DNA from: a phage
DNA length: 64,000 nucleotides
NCBI GenBank assembly: GCA_012813795.1
Contig: GCA_012813795.1_4087.1
Strand: one strand, 5' to 3'
The notes below the pieces were generated by a model that did no database searches, was not told the origin of the DNA, and saw nothing but the letters and a program-made list of their open reading frames with translations. Below are positions 2,417 through 4,774 of this stretch, piece by piece (position 1 is the first letter of the stretch; every line of letters begins with the position of its first letter). A program made the translations under genes and the position numbers.

Positions 2417-3559
2417 ATGTTACCTTTTGTAAGAATGTTAGAGTACGGGAATATTGCACCAGAACCAAAACCTCTATTTAAAAATAGATTACAATGCTCG
2501 GCAGATGCCAAATTTTATTTACACACCAATGGTAATCTATATTGGTTTGGTTCTTCATCATATGGTCAAGGTGGTAATGGTTCATTGAACTCTTCAACCG
2601 CATGGACTCTCGTCAATACAAATGTTGTACGATATTGGGGTGGTGTTCAAGGAACAATTGCGATAAAGAAAGATGGTACTATTTGGTACACTGGTACAAG
2701 TTCTGTTATTCCAGTAATTGCATCAAACACTAACGGTGTTTGGGTTGATGTGACATCGCACTTTGCTGATTTCGGTGTCAGTGCTGATGATATTGATAGT
2801 ATTGTTATATCTGCGTGTATGCGTGTATTTTTGAAAAATGGAAAGTGGTTCTTCTGTGGTGCTGGGAGTGGTGGTGTATTCGGAAATGGTTCATCGGCAA
2901 GCGTTTCACAATTCACGTACAGTACTATAGAAAATGTTCGAAGTGCTGGTTGTGCAATTCGAAGTACTGCATTAGTACTCAATGATGGTACATATTGGTA
3001 TGCAGGTAATACGTTTATATCGGGAACGTCTGCACAAAACGTGCTAAGATTTACACAAGAAACTTCCATCAGCACTGCAATTAAAGCAGTCAATACAATT
3101 GAAACTTCCTATATATTTCTTAGTGATGGAACAGTTAAAGTTGCATCTTCTAACGAACGTGGTCAAGCCGGTACTGGGAATACAACACCAGCCCCTATGA
3201 GTACATTAATTCCAAATTTAGCATTCCAAGGTGAAATAGAGTCAGTGGGTGATCTTGGTACAAACCTTACAGGACCATCCTGTATAATTAAAAATGATAA
3301 TAAGTTATTTTTATGTGGTCTTAATTCAAATGGACAATGTGGTGTTGGTTCAACCTCGACAAATATAACAACATTCACTGAAATGATTCTTACTGCATTA
3401 GAAGGTCGTAATGTTAGTAGTTTTTGTAGGGGATATAACTATACGATGTTAGTTGACGATGCTGATAATTTATATACATGCGGTGTACCAAATCTTGATG
3501 GGGTGTCTACTACAAATGTACCGACAAGGGTTCCTGATTCACTTCTACCGTGGAAATAA
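2417..3559 (+). CDS. RCC1-like repeat beta-propeller protein, array paralog 3
   Basis: ATG after GGAGG, 13 nt after paralog 2 stop; MLPFVRMLEYGN; C-terminus VPTRVPDSLLPWK shared with paralog 4. Confidence 0.75.
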   Translation: MLPFVRMLEYGNIAPEPKPLFKNRLQCSADAKFYLHTNGNLYWFGSSSYGQGGNGSLNSSTAWTLVNTNVVRYWGGVQGTIAIKKDGTIWYTGTSSVIPVIASNTNGVWVDVTSHFADFGVSADDIDSIVISACMRVFLKNGKWFFCGAGSGGVFGNGSSASVSQFTYSTIENVRSAGCAIRSTALVLNDGTYWYAGNTFISGTSAQNVLRFTQETSISTAIKAVNTIETSYIFLSDGTVKVASSNERGQAGTGNTTPAPMSTLIPNLAFQGEIESVGDLGTNLTGPSCIIKNDNKLFLCGLNSNGQCGVGSTSTNITTFTEMILTALEGRNVSSFCRGYNYTMLVDDADNLYTCGVPNLDGVSTTNVPTRVPDSLLPWK

Positions 3560-3566
3560 TATAATA

Positions 3567-3596
3567 GCCAGTATCAAGTACTGGCTTTTCTTTTTT
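3567..3596 (+). terminator. rho-independent terminator hairpin + T-run
   Basis: GCCAGTA-tcaag-TACTGGC then ttttcttttttg. Confidence 0.7.
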
Positions 3597-3631
3597 GTAT
3601 TAAATATAGTATAATGAATAAAGGAGGAATT

Positions 3632-4774
3632 ATGTTACCTTTTGCAAGAATGTTGGATTATGGAAATAAAGCACCAGAACCAAAACCTCTATTTAAAAAT
3701 AGATTACAAGCAAATTATAATACTCGTTTTTATTTGCATGTTAATGGTGACTTGTACTGGTATGGTTCATCTTCATTTGGACAAGGTGGTAATGGTTCAT
3801 TACAATCATCCACCGTATGGACCCGTGTGAATAATAATATTGAACGTTACTGGGGTGGTGTTCTTGGTTCCATTGCCATTAAGAATGATGGAACTATTTG
3901 GTTCACAGGTGCTAGTATAGTAATGCCACAAATCGGAACAAATACAAATGGGGTTTGGATTGATGTAACCCAGTACTTCACTGATTTTGGTGTCAGTGCT
4001 GATGATATTGATGGTATTGCTGTTGGGCAGAATTTGCGTGTATTTTTAAAAAATGGAAAATGGTTCTACTGTGGTGCTGGCGAGGGTGGTGTATTTGGTA
4101 ACGCGTCAACAGCTAATGTCACATCGTTCAGATACAGCACTATAGAAAATGTTAAAAGTTATGGCTGTTCTTTGCTCAGTACTGGGTTAGTACTTGATGA
4201 TGGCTCCTATTGGTATGCAGGAAATACTGTTGCTCCTGGTAGTACAAAAACATCAAATATATTAAGTTTTACAAAAGACAATACGATCACCAATGCTATA
4301 CAAGCTGTAAATACATACCGTACTTCATATATATTTCTTAATGATGGTTCAGTGAAGGTTGCTTCACCAAATGCATATGGTCAAGCTGGTGTAGGTACAG
4401 TATCAGCAGTACCAATGAGTACATTAATTCCCAATTTATCATTCCAAGGTGAAATAGAGTTGGTGGGTGGTTTATCCAACAACGAAGGGAATGGATGTGT
4501 TGTTAAAAATAATAATAAGTTATATACTTGTGGTCGAAATACCTATGGTCTATGTGGTGTTAATCAAACATCCGAAAATATACTAACTTTCACCGAAATG
4601 GTTCTTGATGCATTAGAAGGAAGACGAATTTCAGGCTTCGTAATTGATAATTTCTATTCAATGATAATTGATGAAAATAACAATTTGTATATGAGTGGTT
4701 TGGCTGAACTTGGAAATGTTCCAGCCGTTAGAGTACCAACCAGAGTTCCTGATTCACTTCTACCGTGGAAATAA
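3632..4774 (+). CDS. RCC1-like repeat beta-propeller protein, array paralog 4
   Basis: ATG 3632 after AAAGGAGG; MLPFARMLDYGN; close paralog of gene 3 (identical 40-nt stretch after the leader). Confidence 0.75.
   Translation: MLPFARMLDYGNKAPEPKPLFKNRLQANYNTRFYLHVNGDLYWYGSSSFGQGGNGSLQSSTVWTRVNNNIERYWGGVLGSIAIKNDGTIWFTGASIVMPQIGTNTNGVWIDVTQYFTDFGVSADDIDGIAVGQNLRVFLKNGKWFYCGAGEGGVFGNASTANVTSFRYSTIENVKSYGCSLLSTGLVLDDGSYWYAGNTVAPGSTKTSNILSFTKDNTITNAIQAVNTYRTSYIFLNDGSVKVASPNAYGQAGVGTVSAVPMSTLIPNLSFQGEIELVGGLSNNEGNGCVVKNNNKLYTCGRNTYGLCGVNQTSENILTFTEMVLDALEGRRISGFVIDNFYSMIIDENNNLYMSGLAELGNVPAVRVPTRVPDSLLPWK

What the first reader, a model, noticed from the sequence alone, without database searches (positions are those of the whole stretch)
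2417..4774. Recent duplication or gene conversion between array paralogs (3/4 and 8/9)
Paralogs 3 and 4 share an identical 40-nt stretch after the leader (gcaccagaaccaaaacctctatttaaaaatagattacaa, protein APEPKPLFKNRLQ) and the same C-terminus VPTRVPDSLLPWK, while their central blades differ. Paralogs 8 and 9 share about 80 nt around the start (including the GGATAT variant RBS) and similar C-termini. Conserved termini with variable middles are typical of cassette-like diversification.
Basis: seen in the sequence. Interest (0 to 1): 0.5.

Follow-up and report, generated by a model that had tools for sequence, protein, structure and literature searches.

The report
Gene-conversion patches in phage propeller-gene array
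Two neighbouring, anciently duplicated genes in a jumbo coliphage's tandem array of RCC1-like propeller genes carry short, recently copied identical patches at their ends, an ordinary result of recombination between the repeated junction sequences that also move whole gene cassettes between related phages.

Summary
The window starts with a known feature of Asteriusvirus (121Q/PBECO4-like) jumbo coliphages: a tandem array of 11 RCC1-like/Kelch propeller genes that all begin with MLPFVRMLEYGN.

Paralogs 3 and 4 share an exact 39-nt run (2456-2494 = 3671-3709) and a 36-nt 3' run. Paralogs 8 and 9 share a 58-nt exact run across the start codon.

The 'recent duplication' reading is wrong:
- 3 and 4 are 65% identical in protein along their whole length, not only at the ends.
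- Their body dS is about 0.97.
- Each has its own orthologues in other phages.
- 8 and 9 are 39% identical and evenly diverged.

The 'gene conversion' reading is right. The closest relatives of paralog 3 (phage A4 and three other genomes) match it almost perfectly elsewhere but carry a different sequence in exactly this patch. In the window the patch equals the paralog-4 type.

The 8/9 similarity is the ~109-nt junction module (terminator hairpin, promoter-like box, ribosome-binding site, leader codons) that precedes most cassettes. Its variants are homogenised within genomes. Cassette gains, losses and replacements between phages break inside it.

This resembles promoter-terminator (PeSL) modular shuffling in T4-type phages. 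It is a new instance of a known process, of modest interest.

The parts
213..13555 (+). Tandem array of 11 leader-tagged propeller cassettes. Leader ATGs lie at 282, 1511, 2417, 3632, 4847, 6027, 7249, 8511, 9762, 10952 and 12400. Cassette 2 is Kelch and the rest are RCC1-like. Cassette 9 is frame-shifted and cassette 11 is broken.
2417..3559 (+). Paralog 3 ('type C', 380 aa). It is a predicted seven-bladed RCC1-like propeller with a disordered N-terminal tag and linker (residues 1-21).
3632..4774 (+). Paralog 4 ('type A', 380 aa). It is 65% aa identical to paralog 3 along the whole length.
2456..2494 (+). Conversion patch in paralog 3. The maximal tract is 39 nt; the minimal tract defined by informative sites is 2467-2488. 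It is identical to all type-A alleles and differs at 8 sites from the orthologue in phage A4.
3671..3709 (+). Donor-type copy of the patch in paralog 4. It is identical in the type-A alleles of 121Q and G17 (A4_3 differs at one site), and the peptide APEPKPLFKNRLQ is the same in every type-A protein read.
3530..3565 (+). 3' identity tract of paralog 3 (last 30 coding nt plus 6 nt), identical to 4745-4780.
4745..4780 (+). 3' identity tract of paralog 4. Type-A alleles with ~99% identical bodies (WIN_4/A4_3, G17_6, 121Q_2) become identical to type C at three different, nested points.
3563..3671 (+). Junction module between 3 and 4: terminator-like hairpin 3566-3586, T-run, ATTAAATATAGTATAAT box, AAGGAGG, then the ATG and 36-nt leader. 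Eight good copies start at 213, 1442, 3563, 4778, 5958, 7179, 8442 and 9693.
8467..8524 (+). 58-nt exact run ahead of and into paralog 8, shared with 9718-9775 (module variant AATATAATATAATG...GGATAT).
9718..9775 (+). The same run ahead of and into paralog 9. In phage A4 this very module is joined, inside the leader, directly to cassette 10, so cassette 9 is absent there.
8511..9686 (+). Paralog 8 (391 aa).
9762..10941 (+). Paralog 9, in two frames (9762-10571, then the +1 frame to 10941). The frame break lies near 10533-10545.

Best explanation
Paralogs 3 and 4 are old duplicates in a cassette array of an Asteriusvirus-like jumbo coliphage. Most cassettes are preceded by the same ~109-nt junction module: stop codon, terminator-like hairpin, T-run, AT-rich TATAAT box, Shine-Dalgarno sequence, then the first 12 codons (MLPFVRMLEYGN). 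Inferred: homologous recombination, presumably by the phage's own recombination proteins, between these repeated modules has two effects. It swaps, deletes or inserts whole cassettes between and within genomes. It also produces short non-reciprocal copying (ectopic gene conversion), which homogenises the module and leader within a genome and runs a few tens of bases into the coding sequence where neighbours are similar enough. Shown by comparison: in this lineage, after its split from phage A4, a 22-39-nt patch of the type-4 sequence was copied into paralog 3. It falls in the proline-rich linker between the N-terminal tag and the first propeller blade. The shared 3' end of 3/4 and the shared module and leader ahead of 8/9 are the same kind of event. 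The recombination mechanism itself is inferred.
For: (1) The body of WIN_3 differs from A4_2 at 8 of 1032 sites and from type A at 318. In alignment columns 40-78 WIN_3 has 0 differences from type A (WIN_4, 121Q_2, G17_6), while A4_2 has 8.
(2) WIN_3 and A4_2 differ at 17 sites in total, 7 of them within 22 nt. The scan-statistic permutation gives p = 5e-6.
(3) Direction: A4, P0008 and the outgroup P0009 (14-16 aa body differences) all have APEPAPR[LF]KNRLQ. Only the window has APEPKPLFKNRLQ on a type-C body.
(4) The patch has no synonymous differences although body dS is 0.97.
(5) Elsewhere the identity profile to type A is the same for all type-C alleles, so only the 5' end is lineage-specific.
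(6) 3' end: three nested endpoints are seen among type-A alleles whose bodies differ by about 1%.
(7) In A4, paralogs 2 and 3 are identical over columns 1-50. This is an independent homogenisation event at the same place.
(8) Module and leader: the GGATAT variant ahead of WIN_8 and WIN_9 is absent from the orthologues of both types. The leader variant ATGTTGGATTATGG is found on type-8 orthologues in A4, PBECO4 and CRJP21. In the window it also heads cassettes 4, 6 and 9, whose orthologues carry other leaders. Leaders of different cassette types in the same genome differ less (4.3 of 36) than those in different genomes (5.4 of 36).
(9) Cassette loss (cassette 9 in A4) and replacement (cassette 6) have their joints inside the leader or module. 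Cassette content differs in all 12 arrays compared.
(10) Paralogs 1 (RCC1-like) and 2 (Kelch) have different folds but share a 59-nt exact run across the start. Whole-gene duplication cannot explain that.
Against: - The donor cannot be shown to be the resident paralog 4 rather than a type-A gene of a co-infecting phage.
- The 5' boundary of the tract is undefined, because the leader is itself shared.
- One type-C allele (BF17) is only 2 nt from the patch sequence. The ancestral family state may therefore have resembled it, and an unseen type-C allele could have been the donor.
- Promoter and terminator activity of the module is untested. The sigma-70 scan found no excess of promoters over shuffles (77 against 74), and the module has no good -35 box.
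- The window's P3 allele is on record from only one contig.
- Nucleotide-level comparison rests mainly on one close relative (A4).
Confidence: 0.78

Rival explanations
1. The patches came in by homologous recombination with a different, co-infecting phage genome (allelic or homeologous exchange), not by copying between paralogs of the same genome.
For: Whole cassettes clearly move between phages. Type-A bodies are ~99% identical in the window, A4, G17 and 121Q, while type-C bodies differ by 14%. Type-A alleles with the same leader as WIN_3 exist elsewhere (A4_3, P0005).
Against: An exact donor lies 1.2 kb away in the same genome. Leader variants cluster by genome. The sequence data cannot separate the two routes, and both use the same substrates.
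Confidence: 0.14
2. Recent tandem duplication of 3 into 4 (and 8 into 9), followed by rapid divergence of the middle under diversifying selection, with the ends as unchanged remnants.
For: The genes are adjacent and of equal length (380 aa), and their ends are identical.
Against: Body dS is 0.97 and dN/dS 0.29, which indicates purifying selection. Both types occur as separate orthogroups, alone or non-adjacent, in other genomes. The patch is absent from the closest relatives of paralog 3. 8 and 9 are 39% identical, and among 12 genomes they occur together only in this one.
Confidence: 0.02
3. The identical stretches are kept by selection on the peptide or on a nucleotide-level element (translation start region, RNA structure), not by copying.
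For: The leader MLPF.R...YGN is conserved across genera and protein folds, so selection does act on the first 12 codons. The C-terminal peptide is conserved in nearly all family members.
Against: The patch region is the most variable part among type-C orthologues: at least five peptide variants and a 3-nt indel. It lies in a low-confidence linker (pLDDT below 50). Selection on the peptide would not fix all synonymous sites. 121Q_2 keeps the same C-terminal peptide with three extra synonymous differences.
Confidence: 0.04
4. Assembly artefact: short-read assembly mixed reads from the two paralogs.
For: Repeats spaced 1.2 kb apart are difficult for short-read assemblers, and the allele is known from a single contig.
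Against: A patch needs two switches within 39 nt, flanked by paralog-specific sequence on both sides. No read would carry the type-A patch on a type-C flank unless that arrangement exists. Comparable mosaics occur in independently sequenced phages: A4 columns 1-50 and the G17 3' tract.
Confidence: 0.02

Closest known systems
[quoted passage not shown] 2010, PMC2839356; Comeau et al. 2014, PMC4122927)
   Same: Both are short repeated intergenic modules made of a stem-loop terminator, a promoter-like box and a Shine-Dalgarno sequence. Both sit in front of variable, non-core genes. In both, insertion, deletion and replacement differences between close relatives have their joints in the modules.
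   Different: The host here is a Rak2-like jumbo phage (Asteriusvirus), not a T4-type phage. Within the 64-kb window the module is private to one paralog array rather than spread over many hyperplastic regions. It extends 36 nt into the coding sequence, so exchanges keep a common N-terminal tag in frame. It has a perfect TATAAT but no convincing -35 box. Promoter and terminator activity and mini-circles were not tested.
Ectopic (non-allelic) gene conversion and concerted evolution in tandem gene families
   Same: There is a short identity tract bounded by diverged flanks. The tract and the flanks give conflicting phylogenies. The donor is unchanged. Repeat ends are homogenised within a genome.
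   Different: The tracts are very short (22-39 nt) and confined to the cassette ends, next to the shared module. The gene bodies are not homogenised at all; most pairs are 44-51% nt identical.
RCC1-like protein arrays already noted in 121Q, PBECO4 and phAPEC6 (PMC7247149; PMC5259590)
   Same: It is the same locus and family. phAPEC6 is reported to have eleven RCC1-like proteins and 121Q thirteen. The window's genes match PHROG 4219 and Pfam RCC1 repeats.
   Different: Those papers only record the multiplicity and suggest tandem duplication or DNA condensation. The papers read here and the two literature searches aimed at it turned up no description of junction modules, cassette turnover or conversion patches.
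T4 internal proteins (IPI-III) with a shared N-terminal capsid-targeting sequence (recalled from memory, not tested here)
   Same: A short conserved N-terminal peptide heads otherwise unrelated, highly polymorphic, non-essential proteins. Leader-tagged homologues in phage CBB are virion proteins by mass spectrometry.
   Different: There is no conserved protease site after the tag: the residue at the would-be P1 position varies among E, D, K, N and R. phAPEC6 virion proteomics did not list RCC1-like proteins. Packaging or cleavage was not tested.

Membership tests
Ectopic gene conversion between paralogs | Identity tract between paralogs longer than expected from their overall divergence | tested here: met
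   The run is 39 nt. The shuffle gives p = 0.003, and there are no synonymous differences at 8.7 synonymous sites against a body pS of 0.54.
Ectopic gene conversion between paralogs | Phylogenetic conflict: the tract groups with the paralog while the flanks group with the orthologue | tested here: met
   In the tract there are 0 differences to type A and 8 to A4_2. In the body there are 8 differences to A4_2 and 318 to type A. Clustering gives p = 5e-6.
Ectopic gene conversion between paralogs | Non-reciprocal: the donor keeps its own sequence | tested here: met
   The patch in WIN_4 equals that of its orthologues in 121Q and G17, and the peptide is the same in P0005, P0014 and P0016.
Ectopic gene conversion between paralogs | The donor is in the same genome (as opposed to exchange with another phage) | not testable with these tools
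   An exact donor is present 1.2 kb away, but identical type-A alleles circulate in other phages.
PeSL modular-shuffling elements (T4-type phages) | Stable intergenic stem-loop acting as terminator/attenuator | tested here: met
   A hairpin GCCAGTAC-loop-GTACTGGC plus T-run occurs at 1446, 3566, 4781, 5963, 7182, 8447, 9698 and 12314, with fold energies of about -10 to -13 kcal/mol. Activity was not measured.
PeSL modular-shuffling elements (T4-type phages) | Strong sigma-70-like early promoter (-35 and -10 boxes) | tested here: inconclusive
   A perfect TATAAT lies 16-17 nt before the ATG in 8 modules, but the -35 candidates are TTTTCT-like. The region shows no excess of promoter matches over shuffles (77 against 74.2).
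PeSL modular-shuffling elements (T4-type phages) | Indel and replacement joints between close relatives lie in the elements | tested here: met
   The cassette 9 joint lies within ATG+1 to +21. Cassette 6 replacement is bounded by the leader and the next module. Homology blocks to 11 phages end at modules.
PeSL modular-shuffling elements (T4-type phages) | Dispersed through the hyperplastic regions of a T4-type genome | tested here: not met
   The source is Asteriusvirus-like. Within the 64-kb window the full module occurs only in the array.
RCC1-like domain (RLD) beta-propeller | RCC1 repeat sequence signature | tested here: met
   For P3, PF13540 scores 35.1 bits (cutoff 22) and PF00415 scores 24.1 (cutoff 21.7). 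PF25390 gives E = 1e-21 but falls below its 150-bit cutoff. PHROG 4219 gives E = 4e-108.
RCC1-like domain (RLD) beta-propeller | Seven-bladed propeller fold | tested here: met
   The model has pLDDT 78.9 and pTM 0.82. The top solved matches are UVR8, RPGR, HERC2 and RCC1, with E down to 4e-20 and TM 0.71.
RCC1-like domain (RLD) beta-propeller | Chromatin or DNA condensation, or Ran-GEF activity (implied by the database name) | not testable with these tools
   Nothing here supports a DNA-condensation role. The name is inherited from eukaryotic RCC1.
Silent-cassette antigenic variation (pilE/pilS type) | One expressed locus plus promoterless partial donor copies | tested here: not met
   Every cassette is a complete ORF with its own Shine-Dalgarno sequence and start codon, and most have their own module.

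The most novel reading that the evidence does not exclude
The 12-residue leader MLPF.R...YGN may be a universal docking or incorporation tag. It would attach interchangeable binding domains (RCC1-like propellers, Kelch propellers, LamG lectin-like domains) to the virions of Rak2-like jumbo phages, possibly to the 'hairs' seen on CBB and phAPEC6. The junction module that contains its codons would then act as a built-in recombination handle, letting these phages swap and re-assort display domains in frame. That would make it a plug-and-play system for surface or host-interaction diversity, not a set of 'DNA condensation' proteins.
Probability: 0.25. Interest if true: 0.65.

Novelty: new member of a known kind. 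Interest (0 to 1): 0.35.

Why it matters
It corrects the idea that these array genes are recent copies. It shows, with dated and directed examples, that the 'RCC1-like' locus of Asteriusvirus phages evolves by cassette exchange and short conversion patches at a shared module of junction plus leader. This explains why the locus differs in every sequenced relative, and why annotation and orthology calls there are unreliable. It points to the leader, rather than the propeller bodies, as the constrained functional element. It also gives a concrete substrate for testing recombination-driven modular shuffling outside the T4-type phages.

Tried and rejected
- Recent duplication was rejected on body dS of 0.97 and on the orthologue distribution.
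- Hidden conversion tracts in the body of 3/4 were sought. The low-divergence windows (columns 331-390, 421-480, 781-840) are equally conserved in all type-C alleles, so they reflect constraint rather than lineage-specific copying.
- A donor for the A4-type patch was sought among 12 arrays and none was found.
- The IMG/VR scan returned only 121Q itself.
- The complete E. coli genome collection gave no match.
- Conversion inside the 8/9 coding bodies was tested and no run exceeded chance.
- A protease-cleaved targeting leader of the T4 type was considered and rejected, because the position after the tag is not conserved.
- A sigma-70 promoter in the module could not be supported statistically.
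Full report
**What the locus is**

- The first 14 kb of the window is a + strand tandem array of 11 genes that all begin with MLPFVRMLEYGN or a close variant. The leader ATGs are at 282, 1511, 2417, 3632, 4847, 6027, 7249, 8511, 9762, 10952 and 12400.
- Ten cassettes are RCC1-like and cassette 2 is Kelch (Pfam; PHROG 4219).
- A model of paralog 3 has pLDDT 78.9 and pTM 0.82. It is a propeller whose best solved matches are UVR8, RPGR, HERC2 and RCC1, with E down to 4e-20.
- Residues 1-21, which are the tag plus a proline-rich linker, are predicted disordered.
- The DNA matches Asteriusvirus jumbo coliphages. The nearest record is phage A4, at 97.5% over 2380-4830. No record covers the whole array.
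- The multiplicity of RCC1-like genes in 121Q, PBECO4 and phAPEC6 is already in the literature (PMC7247149, PMC5259590).

**Checking the observation**

- The 39-nt identity between paralogs 3 and 4 (2456-2494 = 3671-3709) is real. So is the identical 3' end (3530-3565 = 4745-4780).
- The pair is not 'ends conserved, middle different'. It is 72% nt and 65% aa identical along the whole 380 aa. 60-nt windows range from 48 to 90%.
- The 39-nt run exceeds codon-column shuffles (p = 0.003). It has no synonymous change although body pS is 0.54.
- Paralogs 8 and 9 share a 58-nt exact run across the start codon, or 76 nt with one mismatch. Pairs 1/2 (59 nt) and 4/6 (46 nt) do the same.
- After repairing its frameshift, paralog 9 is 39% identical to 8 in protein. 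Beyond the leader, the longest identical run is 12 nt (shuffle p = 0.54).

**Why it is not a recent duplication**

- Body dS between 3 and 4 is 0.97 with dN/dS 0.29. The window and A4 differ by dS 0.025.
- Across 12 arrays the cassettes fall into about 30 types.
- 'Type C' (paralog 3-like) occurs in nine genomes and 'type A' (paralog 4-like) in four.
- The two types are adjacent only in the window and A4. They are separated and in the opposite order in 121Q, and occur alone elsewhere.
- Types 8 and 9 occur together only in the window.

**Why the 39-nt patch is gene conversion, and in which direction**

- In a 14-sequence alignment of the 3/4 family, the body of WIN_3 differs from A4_2 at 8 of 1032 sites and from type A at 318.
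- In columns 40-78 WIN_3 is identical to type A (WIN_4, 121Q_2, G17_6), while A4_2 differs at 8 sites.
- Of the 17 differences between WIN_3 and A4_2, 7 lie within 22 nt (permutation p = 5e-6).
- Close type-C proteins from three other genomes carry APEPAPR[LF]KNRLQ. These are A4, P0008 and P0009; P0009 is an outgroup with 14-16 body differences.
- Only the window has APEPKPLFKNRLQ on a type-C body, and every type-A protein has that sequence.
- The patch is therefore derived in the window's lineage and matches the neighbouring paralog.
- Outside the 5' end, WIN_3 is no closer to type A than other type-C alleles are.
- In A4, the two paralogs are instead identical over columns 1-50. This is a separate event at the same place.

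**The 3' end**

- All type-C alleles and most type-A alleles share the last ~30 coding nt.
- Type-A alleles whose bodies differ by about 1% become identical to type C at three different points. 121Q_2 does so latest, WIN_4/A4_3 are intermediate, and G17_6 does so earliest.
- All the differences involved are synonymous.
- This nested pattern fits tracts that start in the downstream junction and run variable distances back into the gene.

**The junction module**

- Eight cassettes are preceded by a ~109-nt repeat. It consists of the stop codon, the hairpin GCCAGTAC-loop-GTACTGGC with a T-run, ATTAAATATAGTATAAT, AAGGAGG, the ATG and the 36-nt leader.
- Within the 64-kb window the full module occurs only in the array.
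- Module variants follow the genome, not the cassette type:
  - The GGATAT/AATATAATATAATG variant ahead of WIN_8 and WIN_9 is absent from the orthologues of both types.
  - The leader variant ATGTTGGATTATGG is found on the type-8 orthologues of A4, PBECO4 and CRJP21. In the window it also heads cassettes 4, 6 and 9.
  - 121Q uses MVKYGN on 10 of 11 cassettes, and Turkey5 uses LFDYGN on 7 of 13.
- Phage A4 lacks cassette 9. Its sequence is identical to the window's 8-9 junction up to ATG+14, has one A4-specific base at +15, and then continues as cassette 10. The joint therefore lies within the first ~21 nt of the leader.
- Cassette 6 is replaced by another type in A4, with joints in the leader and in the next module.
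- Paralogs 1 and 2 have different folds but share 59 nt across the start.

**Comparison with what is known**

- The closest described mechanism is PeSL-mediated modular shuffling in T4-type phages (PMC2839356, PMC4122927).
- Shared features are a stem-loop plus promoter-like module ahead of variable genes, and joints of indels and replacements inside the module.
- Differences:
  - The phage group is different.
  - The module is private to one array.
  - It includes the first 12 codons.
  - It lacks a good -35 box.
- It is therefore described here as working like PeSLs, not filed as a member of that family.
- The papers read here and the two literature searches aimed at it turned up no description of conversion or cassette turnover at this locus.

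**Function**

- This remains inferred. The tag MLPF.R...YGN also heads Kelch and LamG-domain proteins in Pectobacterium phage CBB. A similar tag (MIPF.RI..YGN) heads RCC1-like proteins in Salmonella phage Munch.
- Five of the CBB proteins were found in virions by mass spectrometry.
- phAPEC6 virion proteomics did not list RCC1-like proteins.
- A role as a docking tag for interchangeable binding domains is possible but untested. Nothing here supports 'DNA condensation'.

**Verdict**

The 'recent duplication' half is refuted.
- The phenomenon is a new, well-documented instance of a known evolutionary process.

Noticed in passing
window 9762-10941 (frame break near 10533-10545): Cassette 9 changes reading frame by +1 at ...TCA CGG ACA ATT.... 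Removing one A of CAAAAC restores a 392-aa propeller. The same break at the same place is present in 121Q, SP27, G17 and Turkey5, although the local sequence differs. The +1 frame stays open for exactly 132 codons in all five, with dN/dS 0.16-0.19 at dS 0.37-0.71. No conserved start codon exists for the second part. All close database relatives are 269 or 264 aa (31 member sequences), and the only intact homologue is 64% identical. This looks like a conserved programmed +1 frameshift rather than a dead gene.
   Followed up: partly
window 282-317 and every leader; L013 (phage CBB) 146-5045; L014 (phage Munch) 329-7003: The 12-residue N-terminal tag MLPF.R...YGN is shared across phage genera and across unrelated folds (RCC1-like, Kelch, LamG). 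In CBB, five tagged proteins are virion components by mass spectrometry. The tag is predicted to be a short helix in a disordered extension outside the propeller.
   Followed up: partly
window 12304-13555: Cassette 11 is degraded. Its leader is divergent (MLPFVQMFVYGK), there is a stop after 51 codons, and a 307-aa RCC1-like ORF resumes at 12632. Its upstream module is also divergent (TATCAT in place of TATAAT).
   Followed up: no
window 2405-2416 and 10942-10951: Two junctions lack the module altogether. They are 10-12 nt with only a Shine-Dalgarno sequence, between cassettes 2-3 and 9-10. The 2-3 short junction is also seen in A4 and Turkey5, and the 9-10 one in Turkey5. These pairs therefore seem to travel as two-gene units.
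   Followed up: partly
window 14698-17192, minus strand: Downstream of the array, a run of small (106-145 aa) back-to-back ORFs on the other strand encodes hydrophobic, apparently membrane-spanning proteins of similar size. They may form a second paralog series, and comparable runs are annotated in the related phages.
   Followed up: no
window 58192: A single extra copy of the GCCAGTA...TACTGGC hairpin lies far outside the array, without the promoter-like box or the leader.
   Followed up: no
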